From positions 29,512,001 to 29,576,000 of the forward strand of contig OX442314.1 of NCBI GenBank assembly GCA_949358305.1: a stretch of DNA of 64,000 bases. The letters run 5' to 3'. The notes beneath the pieces were generated by a model. It saw nothing but the letters and a program-made list of their open reading frames with translations, was not told the DNA's origin and ran no database searches. Position numbers and translations under genes: made by a program. This document shows positions 1-26,818 of the stretch, in pieces. The DNA is from Strigamia acuminata. Its lineage: Eukaryota. How positions within the stretch are numbered: the first letter of the stretch is position 1; each line of letters starts with the position of its first letter.

Positions 1-251
1 TCAAATTAAATTTAATTAAATTTAATTTACACGCATGAAATTACTCTCAATTTTATTTTATTTTATGTTAATATAAAATTCGAGTATTATATCTCCGTAT
101 TAAATATCCCTAGCAATCTAATATCACATATACCAGAATATTTTAGTACTTTTACATACGTCACTAGTCCCGTTGACAACGTCATATTTTTCAACCAATG
201 ACGGCAAAGTAAGCAGAATGCACCCCTCTGATGTTGCAAATTATTGTAATT

Positions 252-1315
252 TGTGGTGACCTCAAATATTCCTATTTGAGTGCGCACCATATTTCCAAAT
301 TGTCTTATAAACATATTCAACAAGCTTATATGTTTTGTTTCAATGTAAATTGAAATAAAACATACATTAATAAAATATAAAACAAGACACAATATTACCC
401 AAATAATATTGTGTTTTGCAGCAAGTTTTGGCCCAGCAACAGCGTCAACCAATCGCGCTGCAGCGTGCATTGCTTTGATGATGCTGCTAGGCGTGTGCCT
501 GGGCGGAGCATCCCTTCCCCTCGCGCGTGCCCGGCTCGATTGTTGCACACGACCCGAAGGCGGCCGTGTGTGATCTTCATGCAACTCGTCATCTGCGCAG
601 CTTTTCTGAGCAGATTTAGAAGTGAGCCAAACGGTTTTGGCCCACTCTTCCCGCATTCTTGATTCTGCTTCCAAACCATTCACATCTGTGTCAAACTTAT
701 GCCAACCATTGCTAAGTGTGATCTGTGATATCTGGAAGAGTTGAGATTCATTGCTGGTCCGTGCCAACTGTACGGAATAGCGCCTTTCTGCTTGAATTAC
801 TACGCGTAATTTAAGCCATTTCTGTGTGGAATTGACATAGAGCTTGCTCTGTCAATTTGAAGGCTTTGTGTTGAGTTTAACTCCACAAAGCGAACTGTGT
901 TAAGACGGATTGTTACGTCGAGCTTGCTCCGTAATAATCACTTTCACTGTGTGTGAGAAGTATTCTCGTGTCGAGCGTGCTCCACGAGGATTTTAGAATA
1001 TTTAGCAACGTATTTTAGCGTCGAGTTTACTCCGCTAAAATCCCGCGCTCACACGACGCCGTCGACGCCATCTTGGAGCCAACGGTCAACTGTGAGTGTA
1101 CATTTGAAGAAGAAGCCAGATCGACCCCAAACATTTTAAATAATACCTCCTTTGTATTTTGAACGATTAAAACTATCTAATTTTTCCTTTACTCTGTGTA
1201 AAATCATTCCCCTAGACAAACATTTGGCCACAGAGTAGAAGTCCTGTACGGCATCTCTACGACGATTGCTTATTGAATTTACATAATTTAATAAGTAAAA
1301 ACCCGGATCGCCGCA
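252..1315 (+). repeat. 5' LTR
   Basis: Starts TGTGGTGACC and ends GGATCGCCGCA (imperfect terminal inverted repeat). Repeated at offset 11734; ORF-track translations inside both copies are identical. Confidence 0.97.
790..1054 (+). other. Structured RNA domain in the LTR: five bulged TAR-like hairpins (830-857, 863-891, 908-939, 962-991, 1012-1041) plus hairpin 790-816
   Basis: Each unit is an 8-10 bp stem, a UA/UU/UC bulge, then GAG-loop-CUC. Lower stems differ in sequence but keep pairing; the only non-Watson-Crick pairs are G-U on the + strand. Confidence 0.85.
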
Positions 1316-1317
1316 CT

Positions 1318-1335
1318 TGGGGGCCCGTCCGGGAT
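1318..1335 (+). promoter_or_regulatory. Primer-binding site, tRNA-Pro type
   Basis: TGGGGGCCCGTCCGGGAT lies 2 nt after the 5' LTR and differs by one base from the MLV tRNA-Pro PBS TGGGGGCTCGTCCGGGAT. Confidence 0.9.
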
Positions 1336-1407
1336 AGTTTTGATTGTTAAAATTCGATTTTTGCAAAAAAATCCATTATTTCCATTGTTCTTTTTCAATT
1401 TGACAAA

Positions 1408-4302
1408 ATGGCGACGCCAATGCAAATTGTAAAACGACAGCGAGGTCGACCAAGCACTCAGAAACGAGCAGCGACGGTTTTGCCGGCTCTCGAGCCTGAA
1501 ATGCTTATGGAGAAAATTATTTCCGAGGAAATAACACCAGTTCCAGATCCGAAACAACTTAAGGATGCTGAAAATGAAGTTGCTAGAGCATTAAGCGCTT
1601 CAAGTGCGAGTTCTAACGACCAAGAACTCCCGCCACTTCCACTGGAGGAAGTGGAAAATACGTTACGTGAAATGGAAAGTGAATCGTCTCACGAATCACC
1701 TCCTCGCATGACCATGTTGGATGCTTTGAGAAATCAAGCACGCCAGGATGGCGCCCAAATAACGGACGACATGACGGTGGAAGAGATTCATCGCGCCATG
1801 ATACGACTTCACACTGACCGAGCCGTTTCAAATTTAAAATTTGAAATGGAACGGAAAGAAGCAGAGCTTCAACAACAAAAAGCTGAGGTTGAGCTTCAAC
1901 ACATGGAACTCAATCGACAAAATGAGGAATTTCTAGCCCAAAAAGCTAGAGAATACCGATTAAAAGGTGAAGTGGAAGATCTTTCTAAAATGAACGCTAG
2001 AAATGAACTTTCAATTCGCTCACACCAAGAGGCGCGAAGACAGCTCGAGCTTACCAAAAGTAAGCTGGAGCAGAAAAATAAAGAATTGATTGATTTGGCA
2101 GACCACTACCAACGCAATCATAATCAATTAGTGAGATATGCTGCTGAATTAGACACACGTGCTAAAACACAGCGTACTCGCGAGAGCAAAATAGCTAAGC
2201 GTGAAGATGAGATTTTCCACTCGCTGGATCAACCCAGTACGAGCGGACAAGTCAAGTCTAGCGACCCTGCTAAGCGATTACAACCAGAAGAATCGCAAAA
2301 TCAAATAAATGAGAATGAAATTCTCCGAGCTGATTTGTTGCGCGCTCAAGAAGAGCTTGCAGAAATGAAAGATCGTTTGCAAGCAAGGAATTATACTGAC
2401 CAATTGGTGCAACCAGAAATGGCTGCGCCAACTGTTCCTATTTTGACTCCCGAAACAATAACAATTTCTGTTGTTTCAGAGTTAAGTAGCCAATCTGGAT
2501 TATCGAGTGATGACGACCAACGTTCGCGTCGTCGCCATCGCTCAAAAAGAAAACGTCCTTCAGATTCTGAGGAACGGAGAGCTGATCGCAATCCACTTCC
2601 TGGTAATCGAAATCCTATTTTTCACAACAGTGACCGACTGTTGGGGATGGTAGACGATCGAAATAGACGGCATGAAACTGGTATTCATGTTACTCGAACG
2701 ATACCACTGGCTCAACAGCAAGACTCGTCAAAAAGAAGTCGACGAGACACGAATCCAGCACGCGAACCACCCGACGGACATGAAAGCCCGCCAGGTGGGG
2801 GTCAGTATAGAAGAAATCCACCAGATGGAGGAAATCCAGATGGACACGGAGATGGACCACCTGGAGGTGGACGTCGACCGCCAGACGATGACGGCGACCC
2901 ACCCGACCCACCTGAAACACCACATTTTAACACGCCTTCAAATTCACAATCTGATTCAAGGTCGGATTCTGATGTGAATGCGCAACAAGAACGCGATAAT
3001 CGACATCGATCTCATCGACGTCGACATCGAGGCCATTCTTCTCGGCGTAATACACATTATTACACCGCTGAAGAAATTGATCGATTATTAGCTGATCGTC
3101 GATCTTCCGATCGATCTGACGCTACTGCCGATAATGCTGACATCGCATTACGACAGAAAATTGCCCAATATACTGCAATCAACTGGACACACGATCTAGT
3201 TGACGAAAGGACTATTAGATGGGATCACATCAAACCCGCTTTATTCGATGGAGAATGGGAAGCTGGATCCACTCTTTTAGATGAAGTTTTACGAATTTCA
3301 AGGTTGAATGGCATTGCATGTCACACTGCTTTGAAAAGAGTAGTACCAAAAGCTCTTATAGACCGAGCTGAGAAATGGTTTTATTCTAAACAATTTCAAA
3401 ATTGGAACCACTTTGTAGAAGAATTCATGACTGAGTATGGAGAGTCAAGTGAAGACTTATTACAAATGTGGGATAATCTTTCTCAAAATAAAGGCGAAAG
3501 TCTTCGCTCTTATTTAAGAAGGACTGAGGATTTATTGGTCACTCTCCCTTATACGATGGGAGATGCAGCCATTGATCGTCAATTCCGACGTGGATTGACA
3601 GATTATTCAAAAAATGTTCTACTTTCAGTACGAGCACCTTATCCGGGTGGTTTCGCTGAATTAGCCAAATTTATGCGAGCCAATCAAATAAGGATTGACG
3701 AAAATTATAAAGCTTATCTACCAGCTGATGAAAAAGTTGCGTATGCTAAGCGACAGCAACGGAGAAAGGAATTAGCTAAAGATACACGTTTTGCTAATAC
3801 CCCTCTTTTGCAACCCCCAAAACGAGGAGATTTTTTGGCAGAGACTGCTAAGGAATCTAAAAAGGGATCGGATGGGAAAAATCCACATCCAACCCCTAAA
3901 GCTCACTTAGCCGAAGTGACAGAAATGGAAACTGTTTCTGAACCAGAGAAATCTGACTCGGAACCAGAAAGCGAGGCTGCAGCTGCTTTATTAGCCCGTA
4001 ATAACGCAGTAGCTCGAAAATTTGGACCAAAGATGGCACCTAAAAACGTTACTTTTGGTTCACCAAAGACAGACGCGCTCAGTAGATCGAAGTCGCCGAC
4101 CCCTAAAAAGGACGAAGCCAAACGTTCAAGTTCGCCTTCGCCAAAAGTCGCGAAATCGCCTGCTACTGACCCGTGTAATATTTGTAAAAAATTGGGACAT
4201 TGGGCTAAAGAATGTCCTGACAGAAAATCGAGCAAAGACAAGATTATAGAAGAGTTCGAGAAATCGATGAAATCAATCGGCGAACTTCTAAAAAACTTGT
4301 AA
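1408..4302 (+). CDS. gag: Gag polyprotein, 964 aa (long coiled-coil/disordered N-terminus, capsid-like region, CCHC zinc knuckle)
   Basis: First ORF after the PBS; knuckle CNICKKLGHWAKEC; capsid-like segment (AEKWF...WNHFVEEF...QNKGESLRSY). Confidence 0.92.
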   Translation: MATPMQIVKRQRGRPSTQKRAATVLPALEPEMLMEKIISEEITPVPDPKQLKDAENEVARALSASSASSNDQELPPLPLEEVENTLREMESESSHESPPRMTMLDALRNQARQDGAQITDDMTVEEIHRAMIRLHTDRAVSNLKFEMERKEAELQQQKAEVELQHMELNRQNEEFLAQKAREYRLKGEVEDLSKMNARNELSIRSHQEARRQLELTKSKLEQKNKELIDLADHYQRNHNQLVRYAAELDTRAKTQRTRESKIAKREDEIFHSLDQPSTSGQVKSSDPAKRLQPEESQNQINENEILRADLLRAQEELAEMKDRLQARNYTDQLVQPEMAAPTVPILTPETITISVVSELSSQSGLSSDDDQRSRRRHRSKRKRPSDSEERRADRNPLPGNRNPIFHNSDRLLGMVDDRNRRHETGIHVTRTIPLAQQQDSSKRSRRDTNPAREPPDGHESPPGGGQYRRNPPDGGNPDGHGDGPPGGGRRPPDDDGDPPDPPETPHFNTPSNSQSDSRSDSDVNAQQERDNRHRSHRRRHRGHSSRRNTHYYTAEEIDRLLADRRSSDRSDATADNADIALRQKIAQYTAINWTHDLVDERTIRWDHIKPALFDGEWEAGSTLLDEVLRISRLNGIACHTALKRVVPKALIDRAEKWFYSKQFQNWNHFVEEFMTEYGESSEDLLQMWDNLSQNKGESLRSYLRRTEDLLVTLPYTMGDAAIDRQFRRGLTDYSKNVLLSVRAPYPGGFAELAKFMRANQIRIDENYKAYLPADEKVAYAKRQQRRKELAKDTRFANTPLLQPPKRGDFLAETAKESKKGSDGKNPHPTPKAHLAEVTEMETVSEPEKSDSEPESEAAAALLARNNAVARKFGPKMAPKNVTFGSPKTDALSRSKSPTPKKDEAKRSSSPSPKVAKSPATDPCNICKKLGHWAKECPDRKSSKDKIIEEFEKSMKSIGELLKNL

Positions 4303-4335
4303 GCGCGCATCCAGACGGTCTAGTGGATGCGACGC
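4290..4335 (+). promoter_or_regulatory. -1 programmed ribosomal frameshift signal (gag-pol)
   Basis: Slippery heptamer A AAA AAC (4290-4296) is in gag phase. A stem GCGCGCATCCA/TGGATGCGACGC starts after a 6-nt spacer. The -1 frame is open into pol. Confidence 0.85.
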
Positions 4336-7300
4336 CTACCGCCTCGGAAAATGAACTAACACCATCTCAAATTTTAGATGAATTTTTGAATACTCAGATT
4401 AAATTAGAATTAGAAAATAATTTAATATTTCCAAAAATTGATGTTTCCAGTTTAAGGCTTGTGCTGCAAAATGAAAACATCACTGAAGAATTTTTTAAAG
4501 AAAAAGTTCAACAATTAAAAGTTGATTGGGAATCTAAAATGAAAGATGCTGTTACTTTACTAGATGGAAAAGCTAGGCCCACACCTGAAATCACTGAAGG
4601 ATCAGATAAAATTGATTTACCTGGTCTTGATGAATGTATTGAAAAATTACTGGCTACAACATTAGTCACTAATGATTTATTGGACGAATTACCATTGGAT
4701 CCGCCGATAAAAATTAAACCACCGCGACGTTTTAAATGCAAGTACGCGGACATACCAAACAGCAATGATTTGCCGACGATTCGATTGCAGACGGCAAACG
4801 GTATGATAACAGGGATGTTAGACTCTGGAGCTAATCGAAGCTTCATGGCCTACTCCGTAGTAATTTCACTGAAACTGGAAGATGAAATTCGACCAATTGG
4901 ACCGGATGTGAGAGTTACGACTGCTTCAGAAGATGTAGTCCCTGAAGGAACTCTCCTACTTTCTTTTGCGTGGACACACGGGATGTTAAGTCATCCATTC
5001 ATAATTTTAAGAAACAAATATCCTATTATTTTATTAGGATGTGATTTCATGAATCGACTCAATATTCAACCAAATCCTAAGACCATGTCTTGGAATTTTG
5101 TCAAGTCTTTGAAAGAAGATTTACCTTTTGTTCCTCAAGCGATTCTTGATCGTTATCAAGAGTTCCTTGATCCACCTGAAGAAATAATGAATAGCGACTT
5201 TATTAAAGTAAATCACATGAAAGCTGGTTCCGCCACTGCATGTCAAGCTAAAGTTGCCGATGAAGAAAATATAGTACAAAGACTTGTTAGCGACGCTAAT
5301 TTGTCAATGGAAAATAATTTAATGCTTGAAAGAGTATTAAAGAAACATGAAAAGATTTTATCACGCCGACCAGGTAGAACACACCTCGTTAGGCATGAAA
5401 TTAAACTGGACACTAAAGTTCCTATTAGAGTTCCGTTTAAAAGCGTAAATCCACAGAAACGTGAAATTATCCGTCAAATCTGTCAAGATATGTTGGATAA
5501 TGGGTACGTTGAACAAGCCACTGGAGACTATGGGATGCGAATAGTTCTAGTGATGCGTCCGGATTGTGATCCGAGACTATGCATTGATTTTAGACCACTC
5601 AATGCACATACATTATACGACCCTCCTCAAATGCCCAGCATTGAGGAAATCTTGCGAGAACTCGGAAGGTTTGAATGGGTCACAACAATAGATTTGTCAA
5701 AAGGCTATTGGCAAATAGAGGTTCATCCGAATGACCGTGCTAAAACTGCGTTTTGGAGCCCTTTGGGTCGACTTCAATTTCGAGTCATGCCCTTTGGTCT
5801 CGTAAATGCGCCGTCAACTTTTCAAAAGTTGATAGAAAAAATTTTGGGGGACGCCTATCGAAAATTCGCATGGGCATACCTCGATGATATAATTATTATA
5901 TCAAAAAATTTTGAAGAACACATGATTCATCTGGAAGAAATTCTGAGTAAACTTGAAAATGCAAATCTTCATGTTCATCCAGAAAAATCAAAATTTGGCA
6001 GAAAAGAATTAACTTTTCTTGGTTACAAGTTAAGTGTTCAAGGAGTTAGTGTCGACCCTAAAAAAGTCGCAGCTATTAAAGAAATGCCAGCTCCTTCGAA
6101 TTTGAAAGAGTTGCAAAGATTTTTGGGAATGGTGAACTTTTTTCACCGATTACTTAAAAATCTTGCAGTAATGACAGAACCTCTACGTCCTTTACTCAAA
6201 AAGGATGTGGAATTTATTTGGTCAGAAATTCATCAAGAAGCTTTTGATCAAATAAAAGATGCTTTGACAAATGCAGAAACAATGGCCATGCCTGATTTGA
6301 CAGAACCATTTATTGTGCATACCGACGCCAGCAGAAAAGGACTTGGCGCCGCGCTTATGCAAATGAGGGAAATCGATGATCAAAATATAGAAGTGCCTTG
6401 TGTTTATGCCAGCAGAAGTTTACAACCTGCTGAGATAAATTACAGCGCCACAGAATTGGAGTGCCTAGCGGTAATCTGGGCATTACGTAAATTTCGACAT
6501 TACTTGGAATTTACAACATTCATAGTAAGAACTGACCATCAAGCACTAAAATGGTTGATGCAGTTAGACGAACCTGCCGGAAGGTTAGCGCGTTGGCAAA
6601 TGGAGCTAATGCGCTACTCTTTCGAAATACAATATATTAAAGGTCCACTAAATGTTTTAGCGGATGCTTTATCCAGATCACCGATTGATAAACCGGAAAA
6701 TCCTGAAGATGATGGAGATAATGATGAATTATTATCTTACTGTCCATCACCACAACGAAATTGGAAAATGGGAAAATTTCATGAGCTTCCTGTCTCCACG
6801 CTGGAGGAAAAGGAAGATCACGAATTCGTCAACTATTGGACTAAAATCTATGACCCCTCTGAGGAATCAGATGACGTCATAAGAGCGCAAATTTCAAGGA
6901 AATTCCAAGTTCCTTCGTCAAATGTTTTAATAAAAGCATTTGTCGCCAAAATTGTAGAGCGTCTTGATTGTGAACCCCCCACAAGGGAAGACATAATCAA
7001 GGCCCAAAAAGAAGATAAAGTTTGCCAATTAATGCGTAATTTTTTAAATTGTAATCAATTTCCGCCTGACGTCACAACGCGACTCCAGAGGAAACAATAT
7101 AGAAAACACGCAACCACCTTCTTAATTGAAGATGACTTATTAATGCAATTTCATCCCACAATGTCTGATGAATTGGGGGAGGATGGGAGAGCACTCAAAG
7201 TTTTTGTACCTCAGACATTGAAGTATAAAATTATTTGGCTAATGCATGGCCACCCACTTTCTGGCCACCCAGGAATTGCAAGGACTCTTTATCGAGCACG

Positions 7301-8771
7301 CCGAATTTATACCTGGAAAGGCATGAAATCGGACATTACGAGATTCATTCGACATTGTGAGCGTTGCCAAGCTTGCAAGCCTCGAACGAAAGGACAAATT
7401 GAAGCAGCGCAAATGGGTCCTTACAGCCCATTTGACTGCCTAAGTGTTGATTTGACCGGCCCAAAACCTCGGACGCGCAAAAACAACACACATATTTTAG
7501 TCATACTTGACGTGGCAACTCATTGGCCAGAATTATATCCAATGTGTAACCCCACTGCTGGAAAAGTAGCAAATTGTATTTATCACCTTTCCATGAGCAT
7601 GGGATTCCCTCGTAAAATTATTTCTGACAACGGCCCGCAATTTCGTGCCCAAGTCTTTAAAAAATTTTGTGAAAAGTTCAAGATGGTTCCAACACCAACT
7701 TCAACGTATCACCCACAAGCTAACCCGGTTGAAAGGGTTAACCGTGACATCAAATATTTGGTTGCAATTTATTCATCGGTTCATTCCAAATGGGACGAAT
7801 ATTTGCGTGAATTTGCATTTAGTTTGAGAACTACGGTGACGAGAGGAAGAGACTTCTCTCCCGCATTTCTTAACTTTTTTTGCGAACTCAGAGTACCTTG
7901 GGATCCAAGAATACCTGAAGGAATTTTGGTCGTAGATCCAAAAAACCCACATTTATACGTGCAAAAATTAGAAGCCGTTATCGCCGAAACATATCAGCAC
8001 ATGATGTCACACGTGTTAGATTTGCGTAGACGAGTTAATCTTAAAAAAGAAGGTGAGAAGTTCTCCAATTTTAAATTAAACGATTTAGTTTGGAGAGATT
8101 CTCATGTTTTGTCGAGCGCTGCCCGCGGCATTGCAGCTGGCATCGCTGATAAAAGAACAGGACCATATGTAATAACCAAAGTATTACAGGGAGGATCCGT
8201 AGAATTGAGAAAGCTAGAAAATAACGAAATATTTCCAGCTGTCCATTCGTCTGAATTAACTCCGTATTTCCCGAGTTTCGATCAGGAAGTATGGTTAGAA
8301 GGCGAAGAAGTCGGTCAAAAGACTGAAAATATAATTAATACGTTAGATGACGATGAATTAAAGAAAATACCTGTCGATAATTCATCCAAACCACAAATGG
8401 AGTCAGACCTCGTGAATAACGACGTTGAACTTCGTGACAGTTTCAAAAAGCTTGAAATTGCTAAAAAATTAAATAAAAAGGTGTTTTTAGAAAAGAAACA
8501 AAAAACATCTGAAATAAAAGACTCATCTGACTCAGTCTCCGATGACAATGAAGACGGCGATTTAAATACAATAAATCCCTCGCCGACAAAGAGATATAAT
8601 CTTCGGACTCGTAAACCGAGAGGAAAAAACAACATGTGTCTTCTCCCCTCGATAACCTCGAGATCCAGGGATCAGCCGTATGACGTAAGGAGCAATTCCT
8701 CAAGCCATACTCAAACCAATCAAACAGTAAGATTGGATGACGTCACTAACAGCGACGTTACCCAAACGTAA
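4290..8771 (+). CDS. pol: Pol polyprotein (protease, reverse transcriptase, RNase H, integrase), expressed by frameshift
   Basis: Protease LDSGA; RT YLDD; RNase H TDAS...ELECLA...TDHQAL...ADALSR; integrase HHCC (HGHPLSGH...CERC), DLTG...SDNGPQF...VERVNR and a GPY motif; no internal stops. Confidence 0.97.
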   Translation, partial: KKLVSAHPDGLVDATPTASENELTPSQILDEFLNTQIKLELENNLIFPKIDVSSLRLVLQNENITEEFFKEKVQQLKVDWESKMKDAVTLLDGKARPTPEITEGSDKIDLPGLDECIEKLLATTLVTNDLLDELPLDPPIKIKPPRRFKCKYADIPNSNDLPTIRLQTANGMITGMLDSGANRSFMAYSVVISLKLEDEIRPIGPDVRVTTASEDVVPEGTLLLSFAWTHGMLSHPFIILRNKYPIILLGCDFMNRLNIQPNPKTMSWNFVKSLKEDLPFVPQAILDRYQEFLDPPEEIMNSDFIKVNHMKAGSATACQAKVADEENIVQRLVSDANLSMENNLMLERVLKKHEKILSRRPGRTHLVRHEIKLDTKVPIRVPFKSVNPQKREIIRQICQDMLDNGYVEQATGDYGMRIVLVMRPDCDPRLCIDFRPLNAHTLYDPPQMPSIEEILRELGRFEWVTTIDLSKGYWQIEVHPNDRAKTAFWSPLGRLQFRVMPFGLVNAPSTFQKLIEKILGDAYRKFAWAYLDDIIIISKNFEEHMIHLEEILSKLENANLHVHPEKSKFGRKELTFLGYKLSVQGVSVDPKKVAAIKEMPAPSNLKELQRFLGMVNFFHRLLKNLAVMTEPLRPLLKKDVEFIWSEIHQEAFDQIKDALTNAETMAMPDLTEPFIVHTDASRKGLGAALMQMREIDDQNIEVPCVYASRSLQPAEINYSATELECLAVIWALRKFRHYLEFTTFIVRTDHQALKWLMQLDEPAGRLARWQMELMRYSFEIQYIKGPLNVLADALSRSPIDKPENPEDDGDNDELLSYCPSPQRNWKMGKFHELPVSTLEEKEDHEFVNYWTKIYDPSEESDDVIRAQISRKFQVPSSNVLIKAFVAKIVERLDCEPPTREDIIKAQKEDKVCQLMRNFLNCNQFPPDVTTRLQRKQYRKHATTFLIEDDLLMQFHPTMSDELGEDGRALKVFVPQTLKYKIIWLMHGHPLSGHPGIARTLYRARRIYTWKGMKSDITRFIRHCERCQACKPRTKGQIEAAQMGPYSPFDCLSVDLTGPKPRTRKNNTHILVILDVATHWPELYPMCNPTAGKVANCIYHLSMSMGFPRKIISDNGPQFRAQVFKKFCEKFKMVPTPTSTYHPQANPVERVNRDIKYLVAIYSSVHSKWDEYLREFAFSLRTTVTRGRDFSPAFLNFFCELRVPWDPRIPEGILVVDPKNPHLYVQKLEAVIAETYQHMMSHVLDLRRRVNLKKEGEKFSNFKLNDLVWRDSHVLSSAARGIAAGIADKRTGPYVITKVLQGGSVELRKLENNEIFPAVHSSELTPYFPSFDQEVWLEGEEVGQKTENIINTLDDDELKKIPVDNSSKPQMESDLVNNDVELRDSFKKLEIAKKLNKKVFLEKKQKTSEIKDSSDSVSDDNEDGDLNTINPSPTKRYNLRTRKPRGKNNMCLLPSITSRSRDQPYDVRSNSSSHTQTNQTVRLDDVTNSDVTQT

Positions 8772-8813
8772 CTTCCGGTATTTGAACTGATCACTTCGCG
8801 TCTGAGTTCACTT
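8681..8813 (+). promoter_or_regulatory. Candidate internal promoter for the accessory gene
   Basis: TGACGTAA 8681, CCAAT 8716, ATTGG 8732, TGACGTCA 8738, ETS-type ACTTCCGG 8771, Inr-like TCACTT at 8791 and 8808, followed by a GTAAGT donor at 8895. Confidence 0.5.
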
Positions 8814-8979
8814 CGATCTCACACGTGTGCTAAGTGCTCATCTCCGAAAAACCAAAAGCGAAACAACTGGATAAATTCTCCCGAATCTTCAATTGTAAGT
8901 AGTTTTTTCTTTGGAATTTTCCAAAGAAAAACTAATAAATTAATTTTCGTTTTTCTTTCCATTTGGATTAGTCGTTCAA

Positions 8980-11812
8980 ATGGAAGGAGAGGAACCGAAA
9001 GAAGGAAGCGAAGCCGGCGCCAACAGCCTCGAATTAGAGACAAATTCGACGCTGCTTGGTTCCGCAAACACTTCGAATACATCCGTGGATGTCACCGAAG
9101 AATCCGCCGAAGCGTCCGCCGAAGCTCAAGCCGCTCTGGCCGACGCTGCTGCCCGTTTGCCAGTCGCGCTGCCCCGACTACGAGGAGGCCTATTCGCCGA
9201 TCCGAACGGCGAAACTCGTGCACAGAGACACGACCGGGTAAATAATTCAAAATAAAATTACCTTTCAGTCATGAAAAGTAATTAAAAGTGCATTTTCACT
9301 CGGAAAAAGCGAAAAGTTCGTTGGTAACGCCTTCGCAAGAAGGCGCCGCCATTTTTATCATCAGATGGCGCTGTGTCTCATTTTTGAGGCGTTGCTACGG
9401 CAACGCTCCAAACACTGAAACATAGCCGTCGGAAACAACGTTTTTCACGATTTTTCAAACATTTTGAAAAATTTAACGAATCTAAACTGTCGAATGAAAT
9501 CTCACCCGTGATTTTATTCACTGAAAATTCGGAAATAATTAATTTTAACGAAAAAATGGATTTTAATTATTTCTTCGAATATTTTACAGATCATCCAGCT
9601 TCGGGAGACGCATCTCGAACTACACCCCGATGTTCCAACAGCTCCTGGTGTCTGGCGACATGCATTGCCGCCAGAAATCATCAAGTCCAAAGGAAGACTG
9701 ACGTTTTGGGCGGCCCGACACAAATTCTCCAAGGCCTTAAACAAGCGATGGGGAACAAAGTTTCGGATCGCCTACTTAATCGATGGATTCGGTCATCGCG
9801 ACGCCCTCGAGTGGGCAATGAAGCGCGACACCTTCGGACCACTGCGAAACGTGTTGCTCGACTTCGCCTTCACAGTGATCGCTCAAGAAACGCGAGACCA
9901 TCGCCGTTACTTCAACGCTCCTGCGTGGGAGCGCCGACAGATTTTGGAGGACATTTTCCAACGCTTGGACCAAACCAAAGCCGAGGTTGTACGCCTCTAC
10001 CACGAATCTTTCCGTGTAACAACGGACGGAAAGAAACGTTGGGTGCCGACATGCCAGTCGGAAATGCATCAGCTAGCCATGGGCGGATGTTTCCATGCTG
10101 ATTTCGTGCCAAACCCGTATCCAGAGCCTGAGCCCCGGGTACAGGTCGCTTCCACCATCCACGTGGTGCCGCCGCGCTCCACGTCGAGGTCACGATCATC
10201 GAGGTCGCCCTACAGTGGCCGTCGCTCCTCCCCAACCCAGTCGTCGGGGGAAGGCGCCATTGGAGGGTTACCTCCACTCCAGAAGACTCGTCATCGCTCA
10301 CATCACCGACGCGAGTCGACGCCGCCAAAAAGACATTCGAAGTCCGTGTCGAGACCCGCATCCCGAAGCCGACCTCGAGTGCAATCGCGCCAATCTTCCA
10401 CGAGGAGTTCACTCTCGTCGCGCGAAGAAAGATCCAACGCTTCTCAGCTTAGCGCTTCCACCTCCTCCTGCCAGATTGACTGGTCGGACGAGATAGCGAA
10501 GGAAGATCGTCGCATCGCCGCTTTGCAAGCCGGTCAAGGAGACGTCAACACCTCTTTGCCGTTCGCTTGCCGTCCAGTCACCAGCGACATGCGACCAGAC
10601 CCATCGGTGCCCGTGCCACAAGTGACATCGGTCATCCGTTTTGAGGGATACGTCTCTCACGAACCATTTCCCGCACAGGAGTGCGCTGATCTCTGGAGGC
10701 GATTCTCATCGTTTCCCGAGACAGCCCAAACGATGTACCTCGCGCATCTGGACGAATACCAACTCGCTCAGATCCGCGAAGGAGAGAAGGAATGGCAATG
10801 GCTTGCCCGAGAGCTTGCGTCGTGCAAGTCCGACAAGCAACTGCAACGGACGCTGCAGAAAATGAACAGGAAATTGTCGGAGGGACTTCTTCGAATCCTG
10901 TTCCAAGGAGTCTTTCCCGACCCACAGATTGCTCTGGCGGCCGCCACTCGATTGTGGACCGTGCCGTTAGGGCTTCCACGAGCCTTGCTGGACGATTGGG
11001 AGTCAGTTCGCCCCGATCCTCCAACGATGCTCGCCGAATTGACGCAACAAGCCGAGGCGACTGGCGAAACTCCGGCTGGATCCGCCATTCGACTACGGCA
11101 GGAATGGGCTGCGCTGAAGCAGCGACGCGCAGCAGAACGAGCTACCGCCCGTCCCGCTGGCGCACCACCGTCATCCGCAGCTCCACTCCACGCTGCCATC
11201 ACGGCAACGTCGAGTGTTTCCCGTGCAACCGAGGCACCGAGTTGCAACATCTCGTCTCCGATGGAATGGCTCGACAGCGACGATCGCGAGTTCGTCGTGC
11301 CTGTGGCCAGCGGTGCCAGACCAAAGACGCGCACCCCGGCTTTGCGCAGATCCAGATCCCTCTCGATCTGCAAAAAGTCGCCGCCACCGCTGCCTCCTCC
11401 AAAGGATTCGCCGCCGAGAGATAGGGGATCGAAAATGGCCACCTACCTCACTGCCTATCAACGTTTGCGCTCTTTATACGCTTTTTGCTACATAACGAGC
11501 GCGACGAAAACGATTCTCCAGAACAGCGAGGATTTATGCAACCGAGTCCTCGCGTGGCTGGAAAACCATATCAAGGAACAACAGCCGTGGATCCTGCATC
11601 AACGTCTGGTGTTCGCTCGAATTACGCCTCAAGACCCGCAGGAGTATTTCGAGATGGGTTTTGGACGAAGGGATGGTGTGGACCGCATCAAGCAAGTGTG
11701 GCTCCACATCAACCCTGGCTTCCGGTCAGGACCAAACGCCGGCCGACCTTTGTGCACCGTCACCGAGCACAAAGATCCAAACGATCATTCGACGGACATG
11801 TTGCCGAAATAA
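8980..11812 (+). CDS. Spliced accessory protein of unknown function (~826 aa; coding exons 8980-9237 and 9590-11812), Arg/Ser-rich, not env-like
   Basis: Donor CGG|GTAAAT (9238) and acceptor TTTTACAG|ATC (9589) join the 91-aa and 715-aa ORFs in frame (phase 0). An upstream intron at 8895-8971 has GTAAGT, a CTAAT branch point and a pyrimidine tract. No signal peptide or transmembrane segment is visible. Confidence 0.8.
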
Positions 11813-11971
11813 TTAGGGAACACGCCCGTTCATTAAAAATAATTCCTTTTTTATTTTTATATTGTAATAAAAAAGAATAAATATATATCCTGTTCCATTT
11901 TACTTTGAAACCTTGTGTATTTATTCCTATACTTACCTGTCTCTTTTTGGAAAAGAATAAGATTCTTTCTT

Positions 11972-11985
11972 AAAAGGGGGGAAAG
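11972..11985 (+). promoter_or_regulatory. Polypurine tract
   Basis: AAAAGGGGGGAAAG immediately before the 3' LTR. Confidence 0.92.
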
Positions 11986-13049
11986 TGTGGTGACCTCAAA
12001 TATTCCTATTTGAGTGCGCACCATATTTCCAAATTGTCTTATAAACATATTCAACAAGCTTATATGTTTTGTTTCAATGTAAATTGAAATAAAACATACA
12101 TTAATAAAATATAAAACAAGACACAATATTACCCAAATAATATTGTGTTTTGCAGCAAGTTTTGGCCCAGCAACAGCGTCAACCAATCGCGCTGCAGCGT
12201 GCATTGCTTTGATGATGCTGCTAGGCGTGTGCCTGGGCGGAGCATCCCTTCCCCTCGCGCGTGCCCGGCTCGATTGTTGCACACGACCCGAAGGCGGCCG
12301 TGTGTGATCTTCATGCAACTCGTCATCTGCGCAGCTTTTCTGAGCAGATTTAGAAGTGAGCCAAACGGTTTTGGCCCACTCTTCCCGCATTCTTGATTCT
12401 GCTTCCAAACCATTCACATCTGTGTCAAACTTATGCCAACCATTGCTAAGTGTGATCTGTGATATCTGGAAGAGTTGAGATTCATTGCTGGTCCGTGCCA
12501 ACTGTACGGAATAGCGCCTTTCTGCTTGAATTACTACGCGTAATTTAAGCCATTTCTGTGTGGAATTGACATAGAGCTTGCTCTGTCAATTTGAAGGCTT
12601 TGTGTTGAGTTTAACTCCACAAAGCGAACTGTGTTAAGACGGATTGTTACGTCGAGCTTGCTCCGTAATAATCACTTTCACTGTGTGTGAGAAGTATTCT
12701 CGTGTCGAGCGTGCTCCACGAGGATTTTAGAATATTTAGCAACGTATTTTAGCGTCGAGTTTACTCCGCTAAAATCCCGCGCTCACACGACGCCGTCGAC
12801 GCCATCTTGGAGCCAACGGTCAACTGTGAGTGTACATTTGAAGAAGAAGCCAGATCGACCCCAAACATTTTAAATAATACCTCCTTTGTATTTTGAACGA
12901 TTAAAACTATCTAATTTTTCCTTTACTCTGTGTAAAATCATTCCCCTAGACAAACATTTGGCCACAGAGTAGAAGTCCTGTACGGCATCTCTACGACGAT
13001 TGCTTATTGAATTTACATAATTTAATAAGTAAAAACCCGGATCGCCGCA
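11986..13049 (+). repeat. 3' LTR (second copy of the hairpin array at 12564-12775)
   Basis: Direct repeat of 252-1315, followed by the AATT TSD. Confidence 0.97.
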
Positions 13050-13432
13050 AATTGTATAGAATGTTAATGTAAATTAGATTTGGAAATTTGTATTCCCATT
13101 CATTTCACAAGCCTAAAAATTAATGACTAAAGATCCTATGTTTCCAGCTTTTAAAATTTATGGGTTTATAACCAGATGGCGAACATAATTCAAAACTAAT
13201 TCAAAATTTATATTTATTAAATATGTGATTGGTTTTATCATTTCTACTTCAACAAATAATTAGATTATTATTGTTAGAGTTAGATAAATTAAAAAGTTGA
13301 CACAAATTTTGTAGTGTAACATTTTAATTTGATTCTAGAATTTGTTACACCATCATATCAATGCGAGTTTTTATCACTCCCTTCAGTTGATTTTGCTTAT
13401 TTTTTGTATTAGGCTATGGTTATGGTGATGAG

Positions 13433-15959: not shown

Positions 15960-18029
15960 ATGGAGCAATTTCTAAAAGAAAACGAGTCGGCTGAGATTTC
16001 TGTTCGACAGGTGGGACAAAACAATGTATGCACAACTGGAAATTCGGTAACAATACATTTTCAAAACTTCAGTAAGCGCTAAAATCGAAAACAATGTCCG
16101 ATGATTTTAATTGTTCATTTGAATGTTGTTTAATTTTCTTTTACAGGTCTTACACAAAGTTTGGAAAAACCGTATTCTCATAGTAAGATTTCATAAAAAA
16201 ATTTTGTGATAAACTCTTATCATTCTTTCATTTTCTTTTGTTTTTTTTTATTTGTTTTGTTTTAGACAGTTCTGATATCAATCCTGATGTTTTGAAAAGT
16301 TTAATACCAATATTTGAGAACTACAGGTGTGTAATATTACCAGACATTGCCACAGAAATTGATGATTTTTTATCGCAGGGTGGAAAGATTTGAAATAAAA
16401 ATCAAAAGTCACAGAGGAATGATAAATCTTGATGTTCATCCAATGGATACAATCCAAAGCATCAAACTAAAACTACAATTGGTGTATGGAATACTCTTCA
16501 GCAAACAATACCTCATATTTGAAGAAAAAGTGCTGGATGATGTCGAGAAATTACAAGACTGCAAACTCTCCGATGCCAGTCTCATACACATGGTCTACTC
16601 ACTAGAAGAAACCGGAACTGTAGTATTTTTCAAACGTATACTCGGACGTCTGTTTTGTCTTCGATTTAACCAAGAAACTACAATAAGAGACGTAAAATCA
16701 AAAATTGAGGAAACCGAAGAAATACCTGTCAAGAGGCAACGCTTGTTTCTTGATGAAAGCACGACTTTGAGAGATGAGTGCAGAATATTTGATTATAACA
16801 TCGGCAACAAAATAGTGAAGATTGCCATTGCTGTGGAGCAAGATGAAATGAGGAAAGTTATGGTCAAGTCACTGACTGGAAAAATGTTGTACTTGGTTGT
16901 TGGGCTTTACGACACGGTCGAGGATTTAAAATGTCAACTCGAAGCCAAGGACGGAGTTCCACGAGAAAGTGTGCGAATCATTGTCAACAGTAAGAGTTTG
17001 AAAGATGATTGCATGCTATGTACTTGTTTCGACACTAAGATTACGATATTTCACCAATTCCGGAGACTGAAGGGAGGGGAAGAATTTACTCCTGATTTAA
17101 GCATCCACACTGCAATTGGTGAAATTATTTCACTTGGTCCCGTGATACCTTTTAACTCTAGAATTCTGCTGCGATCCGGGTTTATGTGAACAATTTCTAA
17201 TAAATTGCACACAACACCGCAGTTGAATGCCACTAAGGACTTATATCGATATGGCCTTAAATTATCTAGGGTTAATTTTACGGAAATAAAATACAGTTTT
17301 ATCAATAAAAACACACAATCTTTTATTCGGTTAAATACAATAAGATACGAGAATAAATGTGATAAAATATGGAAAGAAACAATAGAAATACTCGCAACGA
17401 CTGTTGCGAGTCAAAAGCGCGGCAATGGCGCTTAAGAACGGCTGTTGTACAAGGTTTTGTACAAGAAAAGCTGGTGAATCTTGAGTATTAACACGGTCCA
17501 CTATCAGTACTTTTGTCGGAGCAGAAAGCAATGATGTTGTGGGTTGTGTTATTTTGTCAAGAGTCCCGTTCGAAGCTAGGGCGTGAGCCCGACACACTTC
17601 GAAATTGCGCAGATAATCTGCGCAATTAGTTAAAACTGGTGCGACAAAGGATTATTGCACCATAACGGCTAATTACCGTTTTCACCCTGGACAACCTGGG
17701 GTGAGATGTGCCTAGGGAAGATTTCTCCCCTCGGTCACATGATCTGACTTAACGTGTGCCAAGCCAAATTAATTAGAAGATAAAATAAATTCACCTTCTA
17801 AGTGGTGAAACAGTTTGAGATCACTACACTTCTTGCCGTTAAACAACAGGTGTTTCAAGCAAGGGGATTGTCAGTTTGGAGTCAAAGACTATTCATTGTG
17901 AATGAAGAACTGGACGACAATAAAGCGGTGAATGAAGAACTGGACGACAATAAAGCGTTGAATGACTATTTTACTCCACGGAAAAATCATCCGCCGGTTG
18001 TTTTTGAGATTTTAATGATGATGATGTGA
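15960..18029 (+). CDS. Poly-ubiquitin-like protein paralog 1 (four UBL domains, fourth interrupted); exons 15960-16071, 16147-16182, 16266-16326, 16379-~17150, ~17802-18029
   Basis: GT-AG introns keep frame. UBL signatures: LDVHPMDTIQSIK...QYLIF, VKSKIEETEEIPVKRQRLF, VKSLTGK...LEAKDGVP...RRLKGG. The fourth domain resumes after ~650 bp of unrelated sequence. Confidence 0.75.
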
Positions 18030-19411: not shown

Positions 19412-21263
19412 TTAGATTACAAAACCTTTCACAACCAATTCCAACGTAATTTCAGGTCCGAATTCTTCGCATGGTCTTGAACTTTGATATTGAAGAATGT
19501 AATATTTCAATGGTTTGTCATCATCAACTAATTCTTGATCGCATAAGAACAAACGTTGATTCTCAGGCAGAAAACTCTTATTCGATTCATACATTTCTTG
19601 TTTAATGGTGCAAATCTTAAACTCTTGATAACCGTTGTACACTCCAAGAGAAAATATTTGTCCAATCGACGTTCTCACTGACAGCATAGTAAAATTGCTT
19701 CCACCTACTTGTCTCATGTAAACATGCAATGTGGCATTTCTTGTAATTACGTAATCGTTCATATTTTTTTCGTCTTCAAGGCTTTTGCAATTAAATACAA
19801 TATTTAGTAAGTGTGGTGGACACATCATAATCTTTTGAATTTTTCTCTTAACATCATTATCTGTTTCGTACATGCCAACTTCCAAGCATGTGTCTTGACC
19901 ATAACCCCGCAGAAAGATGGATTTAAAGTCCTCTTTCATAACCTTGGCTGCTAACTTGAAAATGGTTGTCTCAACTGGGTAATCGTTAATTGTGCCGCCA
20001 TCTTGCATCACCAGACCAGTCTCTGTAAACAACTGTTGCCTGTCTACTGGCAGTCTTTCCTCTTGTTCTATTTGTGTTTTCACAGTTTTTATAGTGCAAT
20101 TTGGTTCAACTTCGAGTTTAAATATTCTTCCATGGATTCTTTGGATTAGAATAAGTATTTTATCTGTGTGCGACAAGTGAAATAGAGTTATGTTATCGTT
20201 GTTGTTAATATTGCATTCCTTGATGGTGTTTTGATTTTGCAGAATTTCTTCTCCAAATACGAGACATTGTATCTAAACTCTATTCCAAAAAGTATTACAA
20301 ATACTCCCATTGGTTGGTTGGTTGAGACACTTTAAAAAATCTTCGCACAAGTCTACTGGAATCTGAAAACAGCATCATATTCAAGACACAACTGAACTGT
20401 GAATCTCCCAACCAATGGGAGTATTTGTAATACTTTTTGGAATAGAGTTTAGTTTGAGTTTAGTCGTTTGTATTGTATCTGAAGGATGGACATCCAGAAT
20501 TACATATTCATCGTTGTTCTTTATTTGAATTTGGATTCTATTTTTTCTGAAAAGTGAATCAAAATGTATAATTGAAATACAATGTTTTCACAGAATATAG
20601 AAATGAATTACTGGAAGAAAATAACTAGTGGGTTTTTATAAATAACCTTACCTGTGGTTCTCGAATAATGATAACAAAGAACTTATTTTATTGGGATCCT
20701 TGTCAGCTGCAAAAAAAAAATAATATTGTTACACAAATACAAATCTCAATCAATGTGTTCCATTTTTGATATGCGATGAATTACGCAATAACAACCGCCC
20801 AATTGTCCCCCCGATGAGTTGGCCACAAGATTACTTTGCACGCGATTACCTGTCTGCGTAATTACCTGTCCGCGCAATTACCTGTTCACGCGATTATCTG
20901 TCCACGCGAGTACGGTGGCTGTACACTATGAGTGGTCGCGTGATGATAAGTTGCCGTACAAAAAAACAATTTTTTACACATAAAAAGTTTATATTTTGTA
21001 TTTTTATATTTTAAAAATGTTCATTTTTGCCAAACTATCAAAACTAATTAAAATTATTTGTTATCAAAGAAATTTAGTTGATGGGAATTTCCCTTTTGAA
21101 TATACTGACCGCTTTTTACATGGATTACTACCATGTTGTCTCCTATTGTACAAGAATTACCGTCTCCCTGCTGCGAGATACTAATTTTGTTCAGTTCTGT
21201 CTTCACCTCTTTAACCGAAACACAGTTATTCTCTTCTTCTTGACAAGGAGTGATTTTATCCAT
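19412..21263 (-). pseudogene. Poly-ubiquitin-like paralog 2 (four UBL domains), first UBL disrupted by a MITE; exons 21263-21110, 20706-20652, 20546-19412
   Basis: UBL motifs (LEVEPNCTIKTVKTQIEQEERLPVDRQQLF; TLHVYMRQVGG). Exons are homologous to paralogs 1 and 3. The MITE introduces in-frame stops. Confidence 0.75.
20276..20449. mobile_element. TA-flanked MITE inside a UBL exon
   Basis: ~42-bp TIRs AACTCTATTCCAAAAAGTATTACAAATACTCCCATTGGTTGG; absent from paralog 3, which has ~26 bp of coding sequence at this position. Confidence 0.85.
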
Positions 21264-25461: not shown

Positions 25462-26818
25462 TTAAAAAGGAACAATGTTTACGTTGTTATATCGGAAATT
25501 TTCAAATGTAGGGGTATTGAATATGTATTCAATATTCCGATAATAATTTTCATCATAAATCGGTTCATTGGGAGCTACAAAGCCAATTGGTTGAGGTTGA
25601 CTGCAGCTTTGCAGAGAAATGGATTTAAAGTCCTCTTTAATCATTCTGTCTGCTAACTTGAAAACGGTTGTCTCAACTGAATATTTATTAATTGCGTCTT
25701 CATCTTGTATTATCTGGCCACACTCAGTAAACAACTGTTGCCTGTCTACTGGCAGTCCTTCTTCCTGTTCTATTTGTGTTTTCACAGTTTTTATAGTGCA
25801 GTTTGGTTCAGCCTCGAGTTTAAATAGTCTTCCATGGATTCTTTGGATTAGAATAAGTATTTTATCGCTGTGCGACAAGTGAAATAGAGTTATGTTATCA
25901 TCGTTGTTAATATTGCATTCATTGATGGTGTTTTGATTTTGTAGTATTTCTTCTCCAAATACGAGACATTGTATCTTGTTGTCTACCCCAAAGATCAATT
26001 CTAGTTTGAGTTTAGTAGTTTGTATTGTATCTGAAGGATGAACATCAAGAATTATATTTTCATCGTTATTCTTGATTCGAATTTTAATTCTATTCTGTCT
26101 GAAAAGTGAATCAAAATGTTTAAATTGAATACAATATAATATTCCTATAGATACAGAATATAGAAATAACTAAATACTGTATACCTGTGGCTTTCAAATG
26201 CTGATAACAAAGAACTTATTTTGTTGGGATCCTTGTCGGCTACAAAGAAAAATATAATTTATTTCACAAGTACGAATCTCAATCAATACGCCATTTTATT
26301 TTTGTAGTGTTTCAAATTTAAAATTGCAGTTTCATTTGTCTAAAATGTGCAACTTTTGCACAAAATTGCAGTTTTGTTTATTCAAAATGAATTTTTGCAC
26401 AAAATTGCAGTTTTGTTTATTCAAAATGAATTTTTGCACACAAAATTTCTGTTTTATTTGTCTAAAATGAATATTTGCTGATAAAATGTCAGGCATTATC
26501 TAATCAAAACCAAAACGGATGTTTGCAAAATTTCAAGTTATTTTCTTAAAAAAAATCATTTGTGTGTGTAAAAATGAATTTTTTTTATTCTTAATTTTAA
26601 AAATCTTCATTTTTTGCCATCTTTTCTTGTCAAAGAAAATTCCCCTTTTAAACATACTAACCTTTATTTAAATGGACAAACAGCATGTTGTCTCCTATTG
26701 TAATGGAATTACCATCTCCCTGCTGCGATATACCAATTTTGTTCAGTTCTGTCTTCACCTCATCCTTAATTGAAACACAATTATTGCCGTCTTCTTGCCA
26801 AGGAACAATTTCTTCCAT
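25462..26818 (-). CDS. Ubiquitin-like paralog 3, truncated to two UBL domains with an unrelated tail; exons 26818-26662, 26239-26185, 26098-25462
   Basis: Close duplicate of paralog 2 with the same splice sites. Homology ends after EDFKSI (~25615), but the frame stays open to 25462. Confidence 0.7.

What the first reader, a model, noticed from the sequence alone, without database searches (positions are those of the whole stretch)
252..13049. Candidate complete Tat/TAR-like regulatory circuit in a young invertebrate retrotransposon
One intact element combines an LTR array of TAR-like hairpins, a consensus splice donor just downstream of it, a candidate internal promoter, and a spliced Arg-rich accessory gene. 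That is the layout of complex retroviruses. Hypothesis: the accessory protein is made first from the internal promoter and binds the bulged hairpins to activate elongation, export or packaging of full-length RNA. The Arg/His tracts of Gag (RSRRRHRSKRKR, RHRSHRRRHRGHSSRR) are an alternative ligand, which would make the array a packaging signal. Host Arg-rich factors such as HEXIM are another alternative. LTRs identical by eye, an intact TSD and open ORFs suggest the element may still be active.
Basis: inference. Interest (0 to 1): 0.88.

Follow-up and report, generated by a model that had tools for sequence, protein, structure and literature searches.

The report
Five TAR-like hairpins in centipede retrotransposon
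An intact, recently inserted gypsy-type jumping gene, likely from a centipede, carries five conserved hairpins shaped like the protein-binding core of HIV TAR and an extra spliced gene with no relative found in the databases searched; together they likely act as a switch that gets unspliced RNA out of the nucleus, though no binding has been tested.

Summary
252-13049 is an intact Ty3/gypsy element: LTRs differ at 0 of 1064 positions, 4-bp TSD, open gag and pol. Each LTR carries five hairpins with different lower stems but one core: 2-nt U-led bulge, GAG, 4-5-nt loop, CUC. None of 1000 shuffles gave more than one. Among other copies, listed variation falls in linkers (22 of 62 sites). All 5 stem changes keep pairing, and none of 56 core sites varies. 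ORF3 (826 aa by exon arithmetic) has no homologue in my searches; 7 of 7 listed exon-B variants are synonymous. Its 352-nt intron is lost exactly in a few copies in both runs laid. 'Tat/TAR circuit' is not shown: the loops are not TAR's, ORF3 is large and RS-rich rather than Tat-like, and the start site is unknown. Best reading (0.4): a Rex/Rem/CERV-type switch in which ORF3 binds the array next to the LTR donor and favours unspliced RNA. Rivals: Gag packaging signal (0.28), Tat/TAR elongation (0.15), host ligand (0.13). No binding was tested, and no relative was found for a co-occurrence test.

The parts
248..251 (.). target-site duplication AATT (left)
   Evidence: sequence
252..1315 (+). 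5' LTR, 1064 nt, identical to the 3' LTR
   Evidence: 0 mismatches
259..418 (.). strong near-palindromic hairpins at the LTR start; AATAAA 354 lies in a stem, AATAAA 369 between stems, TATAAA 306
   Evidence: z about -5 to -6 on both strands
447..600 (+). CpG/GC-rich candidate LTR promoter (CCAAT 449, GC box 501)
   Evidence: candidate only
702..1407 (+). ATG-free stretch up to the gag start; inferred 5' leader
   Evidence: 0 ATG vs shuffle mean 12.1, 0 of 2000 shuffles as low; 13 CAT
829..858 (+). hairpin 1 (2-nt bulge, GAG/CUC, 4-nt loop)
863..891 (+). hairpin 2 (UU bulge, 5-nt loop)
908..939 (+). hairpin 3 (UC bulge)
962..991 (+). hairpin 4 (UC bulge)
1012..1041 (+). hairpin 5 (UC bulge)
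1092..1097 (+). consensus splice donor in the LTR, predicted paired with 1045-1053; use not shown
   Evidence: the listed variant at 1053 keeps the pair
1318..1335 (+). primer-binding site (tRNA-Pro-like, from recall; not tested)
   Evidence: sequence
1408..4302 (+). gag, 964 aa, one CCHC knuckle, two Arg/His tracts (aa 372-386, 534-548)
4290..4331 (+). predicted -1 frameshift site (A AAA AAC) followed by a hairpin
   Evidence: read from the sequence; frames
4303..8771 (+). pol (PR-RT-RH-IN)
   Evidence: nearest RT-RH relatives 38-45% identical
8714..8778 (+). candidate internal promoter: CCAAT x2, CRE, ETS motifs over the integrase tail
   Evidence: post hoc motif choice
8895..8971 (+). candidate 77-nt non-coding intron (GTAAGT...TAG, 23% GC)
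   Evidence: no joint among the rows shown
8980..9237 (+). ORF3 coding exon A, 86 codons, acidic
9238..9589 (+). ORF3 intron, 352 nt, GT..AG, phase 0, 4 in-frame stops; exactly absent in a minority of copies
9590..11812 (+). ORF3 coding exon B, 740 codons; RS-rich region (aa 196-281) between predicted helical regions; no homologue found
11866..11881 (+). two AATAAA with U-rich downstream sequence, upstream of the PPT; candidate ORF3 poly(A) site
11972..11985 (+). polypurine tract
11986..13049 (+). 3' LTR (array copy at 12563-12775)
13050..13053 (.). target-site duplication AATT (right)

Best explanation
An intact Ty3/gypsy element carries a conserved five-hairpin RNA array and a spliced accessory gene, and these likely form a Rex/Rem/CERV-type switch in which the ORF3 protein would bind the array and favour unspliced RNA. 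Shown: the array is kept as an RNA structure with a fixed core; ORF3 is kept as a protein; its intron can be removed exactly, yet most copies retain it. Inferred: ORF3 is made first from a spliced message (internal promoter at about 8.7-8.8 kb, or the LTR donor) and enters the nucleus. Several molecules dock arginines into the five U-capped bulges. This complex, 50 nt from the LTR donor, holds back splicing (perhaps also early poly(A) at 11866-11881) and licenses export of full-length RNA for Gag/Pol translation and packaging.
For: Array. Five different lower stems share one core. Among 40 listed variants in other copies, 22 of 62 linker sites vary, against 5 of 120 paired sites (Fisher p 6e-8) and 0 of 56 core sites (upper stem, first bulge U, loops). 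All 5 stem changes keep a pair as G.U. The second bulge base alternates C/U at 3 of 5 hairpins. This fits an arginine-sandwich motif, a bulge-pyrimidine cap on the second pair above (PMC6189040, passages). Location. The array lies in a 706-nt ATG-free stretch before gag, 50 nt before a consensus donor. ORF3. 7 of 7 listed exon-B variants are synonymous. It has no signal peptide or membrane segment by hydropathy, and 17 of its 23 RS/SR dipeptides lie in aa 196-281. Need for regulation. The intron is skipped exactly in both runs (depth 915 and 235), a few times the level of single deletion joints (mostly 220-310 and 67-130) and far below intron-bearing sequence. So spliceable RNA is normally propagated unspliced. 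Precedent. [quoted passage not shown] MMTV RmRE overlaps the LTR and is on both spliced and unspliced RNA (PMC12789967, passage).
Against: Nothing links ORF3 to the array except that they share an element. ORF3 has no Tat/Rev-type Arg run; Gag has the stronger tracts (7 vs 5 Arg per 15 aa). The array lies upstream of the donor, so it would also be on spliced RNA, unlike the HIV RRE (recalled). Simple retroviruses export unspliced RNA with host factors alone (PMC3856414, passages), so intron retention does not demand an encoded factor. Exon A variants are 2 of 3 non-synonymous. Use of the LTR donor and of the internal promoter is not shown. Variant counts are not independent events, come from one study, and show 40 of 42 rows; one insertion (behind 990) falls at the foot of stem 4.
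Confidence: 0.4

Rival explanations
1. The array is the packaging or dimerisation signal. Gag's Arg/His tracts bind the five bulges and switch full-length RNA from translation to encapsidation. ORF3 does something else, such as array-independent export or anti-silencing.
For: The array lies in the 5' leader, where packaging signals usually sit (established knowledge). Gag has two tracts with 7 Arg in 15 aa and only one CCHC knuckle. Repeated identical sites suit a multimerising capsid protein.
Against: The array is upstream of the LTR donor, so spliced RNA lacking the PBS would carry it too; exceptions exist in retroviruses (recalled). The pentapeptide shared by Gag and ORF3 is not beyond chance: 596 of 1000 local shuffles share at least one 5-mer.
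Confidence: 0.28
2. Tat/TAR-type elongation control: ORF3 binds the nascent hairpins and recruits P-TEFb to a paused polymerase.
For: The core matches the TAR bulge geometry: U cap, then G-C and A-U pairs. The array is in the LTR and would be on all LTR-initiated RNA. ORF3 has an acidic N-terminal exon and a candidate promoter of its own, like an early trans-activator. A start just upstream of about 750 is not excluded.
Against: TAR is the 59-nt 5' end and cyclin T1 binds its apical loop. The loops here are 4-5 nt, not TAR's hexaloop. No TAR-related Rfam family matched 200-1500 at E<=10 (8 weak unrelated rows). Promoter-like motifs are at 447-600 and plus-strand-specific structure starts near 750, putting the array about 80-480 nt from the likely start. 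ORF3 lacks Tat's Cys cluster and Arg run.
Confidence: 0.15
3. A host Arg-rich protein (HEXIM/7SK system, an SR protein or an export adaptor) binds the array. It then works as a constitutive element or a 7SK mimic, and ORF3 is unrelated to it.
For: 7SK carries four arginine-sandwich motifs, including U.A-U caps. Host-only export elements exist in simple retroviruses. No feature of ORF3 points at the array.
Against: It leaves a conserved, spliced, non-membrane ORF3 unexplained. No Rfam 7SK match at the array.
Confidence: 0.13
4. The array is a neutral product of local duplication, or acts as DNA (repeated factor sites).
For: Short tandem duplications are common in LTRs. The shared core is only about 12 nt.
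Against: Stems differ in sequence yet all pair. Three G.U pairs in this copy and five variant G.U pairs work only on the + strand RNA. Linkers vary freely.
Confidence: 0.04

Closest known systems
C. elegans Cer1 with CERV (Ty3/gypsy; PMC10309623)
   Same: [quoted passage not shown]
   Different: CERV shares exons with gag, whereas ORF3 has its own ATG exon and candidate promoter and poly(A) signal. No sequence hit to any protein. The sections read describe no RNA response element for Cer1; here a candidate element is explicit.
HIV-1 TAR/Tat and 7SK arginine-sandwich motifs (PMC6189040, PMC10996279)
   Same: Pyrimidine bulge led by U, followed by G-C and A-U pairs, in an LTR-encoded hairpin.
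   Different: Five copies instead of one; 4-5-nt loops; probably not at the 5' end; no Tat-like protein.
HTLV Rex and MMTV Rem/RmRE (PMC3856414, PMC12789967)
   Same: Multi-stem-loop element in or overlapping the LTR and present on spliced and unspliced RNA; accessory protein from spliced mRNA.
   Different: No homology found; ORF3 is 826 aa; the element is a repeat of one small motif.
Foamy virus internal promoter and Tas
   Same: Candidate second promoter at the 3' end driving a regulatory ORF.
   Different: Tas acts on promoters. The promoter here is only a motif cluster.
Plant LTR retrotransposons with additional ORFs (PMC7264820); Strigamia CopiaMBD (PMC6673714)
   Same: Extra conserved coding module in an LTR retrotransposon; a retroviral-accessory-like role has been suggested for plant aORFs.
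   Different: Those are antisense, env-like or a captured host domain. No hairpin array appears in the parts read.

Membership tests
Ty3/gypsy LTR retrotransposon (Metaviridae) | TG...CA LTRs, TSD, PBS and PPT | tested here: met
Ty3/gypsy LTR retrotransposon (Metaviridae) | gag, then pol in the order PR-RT-RH-IN | tested here: met
   (protease hit weak, E 0.013)
env-bearing errantivirus | third ORF with signal peptide and membrane anchor | tested here: not met
   best 19-aa hydropathy 0.77 (exon A) and 1.09 (exon B), acidic N-terminus; no Pfam hit
HIV-type TAR/Tat | U-led pyrimidine bulge below G-C and A-U pairs (arginine-sandwich geometry) | tested here: met
   sequence level only: 5 of 5 hairpins (hairpin 1 has an alternative register); first U unvaried among listed variants
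HIV-type TAR/Tat | apical hexaloop bound by cyclin T1 | tested here: not met
   loops are 4-5 nt; no TAR family among 8 weak Rfam rows
HIV-type TAR/Tat | hairpin at the extreme 5' end of the transcript | not testable with these tools
   no RNA holder listed; start site inferred only from motifs and ATG depletion
HIV-type TAR/Tat | small protein with a Cys-rich core and an Arg run | tested here: not met
   826 aa, 11 scattered Cys, RS-type Arg; Tat's features are partly recalled
HIV-type TAR/Tat | trans-activation of elongation | not testable with these tools
   needs a reporter assay
Rev/Rex/Rem/CERV export system | accessory protein from a spliced mRNA | tested here: met
   exact intron loss in both runs; phase 0
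Rev/Rex/Rem/CERV export system | conserved multi-stem-loop RNA element | tested here: met
   that it responds to ORF3 is untested
Rev/Rex/Rem/CERV export system | homology or shared fold with Rev, Rex, Rem or CERV | tested here: inconclusive
   no sequence hit; single-sequence models weak and fold searches non-specific
Rev/Rex/Rem/CERV export system | nuclear localisation and a leucine-rich export signal | tested here: inconclusive
   5 matches to a loose NES pattern in exon B, uninformative
Rev/Rex/Rem/CERV export system | export of unspliced RNA depends on the protein | not testable with these tools
   needs cells
Foamy-type internal promoter | transcripts starting near the 3' ORF | tested here: inconclusive
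   motif cluster 8714-8778 unique in the window; an upstream acceptor near 8806 is an alternative reading of the sequence

The most novel reading that the evidence does not exclude
An arthropod gypsy element has independently evolved a full Tat/TAR-like circuit: an orphan protein from its own internal promoter reads a fivefold array of arginine-sandwich hairpins, which mimic TAR and 7SK, to pull P-TEFb onto its own LTR transcript.
Probability: 0.15. Interest if true: 0.9.

Novelty: new variant of a known kind. Interest (0 to 1): 0.64.

Why it matters
A protein-plus-RNA-element switch is the mark of complex vertebrate retroviruses. In invertebrate gypsy elements I found one accessory export factor in print (CERV), and the sections I read name no RNA target for it. 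Here the candidate RNA target is small, repeated five times and shows selection on exactly the bases that form an arginine sandwich, so a single gel-shift experiment can identify the ligand. If it is ORF3, complex regulation arose independently in an arthropod retrotransposon using TAR's motif. If it is Gag, this is an unusually explicit packaging code. Either way it shows convergence on the TAR/7SK motif.

Tried and rejected
No whole genome is held, so family-wide alignment and co-occurrence tests were impossible. No RNA holder was listed, so start site, poly(A) site and expression are untested. ORF3 homologues: none among 7993 near-length candidates (longer and shorter proteins not searched); none at E<=0.001 in 1.84 billion representatives; no usable Atlas hit, whole or aa 355-525; 2 chance-level PDB rows. 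Exon A was scanned only against Pfam. Structure: exon B model pLDDT 38.9; middle domain 67.8. Foldseek gave no match at E<=0.001 in PDB or BFVD; the best VIA Z was 5.8, generic helical bundles. The N- and C-terminal domains were not folded alone. Array elsewhere: 0 of 8 viral-contig loci and 0 of 47 metagenome loci (48 stretches) held a bulged array; many were tandem repeats, and none hit gag, pol or ORF3 by tblastn. RT scans of viral contigs: none with the single protein; 1 locus at 37% identity with the alignment, without an array. RT-RH relatives are at most 45% identical and mostly unnamed, so no named gypsy clade is assigned. The RHRSH peptide shared by Gag and ORF3 was rejected as chance. 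ATG depletion at 8740-8979 is not significant (p 0.12). No joint from the LTR donor or across 8895-8971 is among the 15 rows shown of 31; a donor-spliced RNA would lack the PBS and is not expected as DNA. Earlier findings: three look-ups, all empty. Literature searches without a relevant precedent: TAR-like + LTR retrotransposon + gypsy, 0 papers; Osvaldo + TAR, 2 irrelevant; Metaviridae + accessory protein + arthropod + stem-loops + LTR, 0; Tat-like + retrotransposon + gypsy, 6 papers, listing only; TAR position dependence, 0. The library lacks most subscription journals. No supplements were read.
Full report
1. The element. Window 252-13049 is a complete LTR retrotransposon. The two LTRs (252-1315, 11986-13049) are 1064 nt with 0 mismatches, start TG and end CA, and are flanked by AATT on both sides. 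An 18-nt primer-binding site follows at 1318-1335 (tRNA-Pro-like, from recall) and a polypurine tract precedes the 3' LTR. gag (1408-4302) hits Retrotrans_gag and zf-CCHC. pol, in the -1 frame behind a slippery heptamer and hairpin, hits RT, RNase H and integrase, with a weak protease hit ahead of them. It is therefore a Ty3/gypsy element. The nearest RT-RH proteins are only 38-45% identical. A host exon at 29178-29375 (V-ATPase proteolipid) is 97% identical to the centipede Strigamia maritima protein and 74-91% to the other 119 listed, so the host is likely a geophilomorph centipede (one exon; inference).

2. The array is real and not chance. Five hairpins at 829-1041 have lower stems of 8-10 bp that differ in sequence. 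They share a 2-nt bulge beginning with U, an upper stem GAG/CUC and a 4-5-nt loop. The motif occurs only in the two LTRs and only on the + strand in 64 kb. A motif-free strict count gives 4 in the LTR (hairpin 1 has an alternative register), against 0 in 994 and 1 in 6 of 1000 shuffles. Rfam has no relevant match.

3. The array is under selection as RNA. Two public runs of one study hold the family (kind not on record). Even cover of intron and exons, cover of the flank and many low-depth deletion joints suggest DNA (inference). Laid on 815-1110 they gave 42 variant rows, 40 shown. Within 829-1041, 22 of 62 linker sites vary, against 5 of 90 lower-stem sites, 0 of 30 upper-stem sites, 0 of 21 loop sites, 0 of 5 first bulge positions and 3 of 5 second bulge positions (always C/U). 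All 5 stem changes leave a G.U pair; about half of possible transitions would, so p is about 0.04 for 5 of 5. Paired versus linker gives Fisher p 6e-8. Of 8 listed indels, 6 are in linkers, 1 just outside the array and 1 at the foot of stem 4. Loose ends hint at more diverged copies: one with a longer loop in hairpin 1, one with an extra hairpin unit, and two ends that would give two double changes in stem 5 if they come from one copy, which is not shown. Caveats: variants are related by descent, come from short contigs and one study, and diverged copies may fail to align. The invariant bases are those of an arginine-sandwich motif, in which the bulge U caps the A-U pair two steps up, as in TAR and 7SK (PMC6189040, passages). 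The structure itself is predicted, not measured.

4. Where it sits. From 702 to the gag start at 1408 there is no ATG (shuffle mean 12.1, 0 of 2000 shuffles as low; 13 CAT), which indicates a scanned 5' leader. A CpG-rich stretch with CCAAT and GC boxes lies at 447-600, and plus-strand-specific structure begins near 750. The start site is thus likely between about 560 and 750. A short-U3 model (TATAAA 306, AATAAA 354/369) is also possible and would put the array still further inside. A consensus donor (1092) follows the array by 50 nt, is predicted to be paired with 1045-1053, and lies upstream of the PBS. None of this is mapped on RNA.

5. ORF3. Exon A (ATG 8980-9237, 86 codons, acidic) and exon B (9590-11812, 740 codons) are in phase across a 352-nt GT..AG intron with 4 in-frame stops. 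Contigs of both runs skip exactly this intron, at depth 915 (2 contigs) and 235 (1 contig). Single deletion joints lie mostly at 220-310 and 67-130, and single variant contigs of the element reach about 16,000 and 11,000. Depth is no copy number, but the simple reading is a family of tens of copies or more, of which a few derive from spliced RNA while most kept the intron. If a run is RNA, the joint is direct splicing; intron gain in the majority lineage is a less likely alternative. Of the 40 variant rows shown (354 more not shown), all 7 in exon B are synonymous; pol has 6 of 8, gag 1 of 1 and exon A 1 of 3. ORF3 has no signal peptide or membrane segment, so it is not env. It is 10.5% Arg (Gag 9.9%), with 17 of 23 RS/SR dipeptides in aa 196-281, between regions predicted helical. 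No homologue or specific fold was found. A CCAAT/CRE/ETS cluster at 8714-8778 is the only one of three motif kinds in the window (motifs picked after seeing them). A candidate 77-nt intron lies at 8895-8971, and two AATAAA with U-rich downstream sequence lie before the PPT. ORF3 may therefore be a self-contained gene whose poly(A) site the full-length RNA must read through.

6. How it likely works. The element must deliver RNA that keeps a spliceable intron, and perhaps an unused donor and poly(A) site. It has a conserved multi-site RNA element beside the donor and a conserved non-membrane accessory protein. [quoted passage not shown] Response elements in or overlapping the LTR and present on spliced RNA too are known for MMTV (PMC12789967, passages). 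I therefore favour a Rex/Rem/CERV-type switch (0.4). Gag as ligand, making the array a packaging signal, is close behind (0.28): Gag has the stronger Arg tracts, although the array would also be on PBS-less spliced RNA. True Tat/TAR elongation control gets 0.15. TAR is the 59-nt 5' end, with cyclin T1 on its apical loop (PMC10996279, passages), whereas these loops are 4-5 nt, the array is probably internal and ORF3 is nothing like Tat. A host ligand gets 0.13; simple retroviruses export with host factors alone (PMC3856414, passages). Nothing here links ORF3 physically to the array.

7. Novelty. Extra ORFs in LTR retrotransposons are common and have been likened to retroviral accessory genes (PMC7264820, abstract and section 7). 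Centipede Copia elements carry a captured MBD (PMC6673714, passages). I found no description of a TAR-like hairpin array in a gypsy element (open-access library only, mostly listings), and no such array in the viral or metagenome contigs scanned. Verdict: a new variant of a known kind. The parts are real and selected; the circuit is a testable hypothesis. Interest 0.64.

Noticed in passing
window 11866-11881: Two AATAAA with U-rich downstream sequence lie before the PPT; full-length RNA would have to read through them to reach R, a possible second regulated step.
   Followed up: partly
window 259-418 and 11993-12152: Three strong near-palindromic hairpins open the LTR (z about -5 to -6 on both strands); one hides an AATAAA and the next a GU-rich stretch, recalling an occluded poly(A) hairpin.
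   Followed up: partly
window 752-815: Two further hairpins with G.U pairs just upstream of the array; the window 732-851 folds well only on the + strand (z -4.2 vs -0.3).
   Followed up: partly
window 6930-9103: A deletion joint at depth 1825 in run X1 only removes the integrase and the candidate internal promoter: a possible amplified non-autonomous subfamily.
   Followed up: no
window 9166-9176: Exon A varies more than exon B and has an in-frame 6-nt insertion in some copies.
   Followed up: no
window 822 (loose end, run X2): One contig carries an extra unit of the bulged hairpin ahead of the array, so the number of units may vary in the family.
   Followed up: no
window 28718-29495: Exons of a V-ATPase 21-kDa proteolipid gene; one exon is 97% identical to the Strigamia maritima protein.
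   Followed up: partly
window 16335-17189 (+), 19412-20272 (-), 25462-26169 (-): Three ORFs that look like tandem ubiquitin-like domains (resemblance recalled, not tested), possibly an expanded host family.
   Followed up: no
window 33276-33632 (-): Exon resembling a PAP2-type lipid phosphatase (recalled, not tested).
   Followed up: no
L056: An IMG/VR contig of 9984 nt with gypsy-like RT and integrase (37% and 26%) and a 123-nt terminal repeat; no hairpin array.
   Followed up: partly
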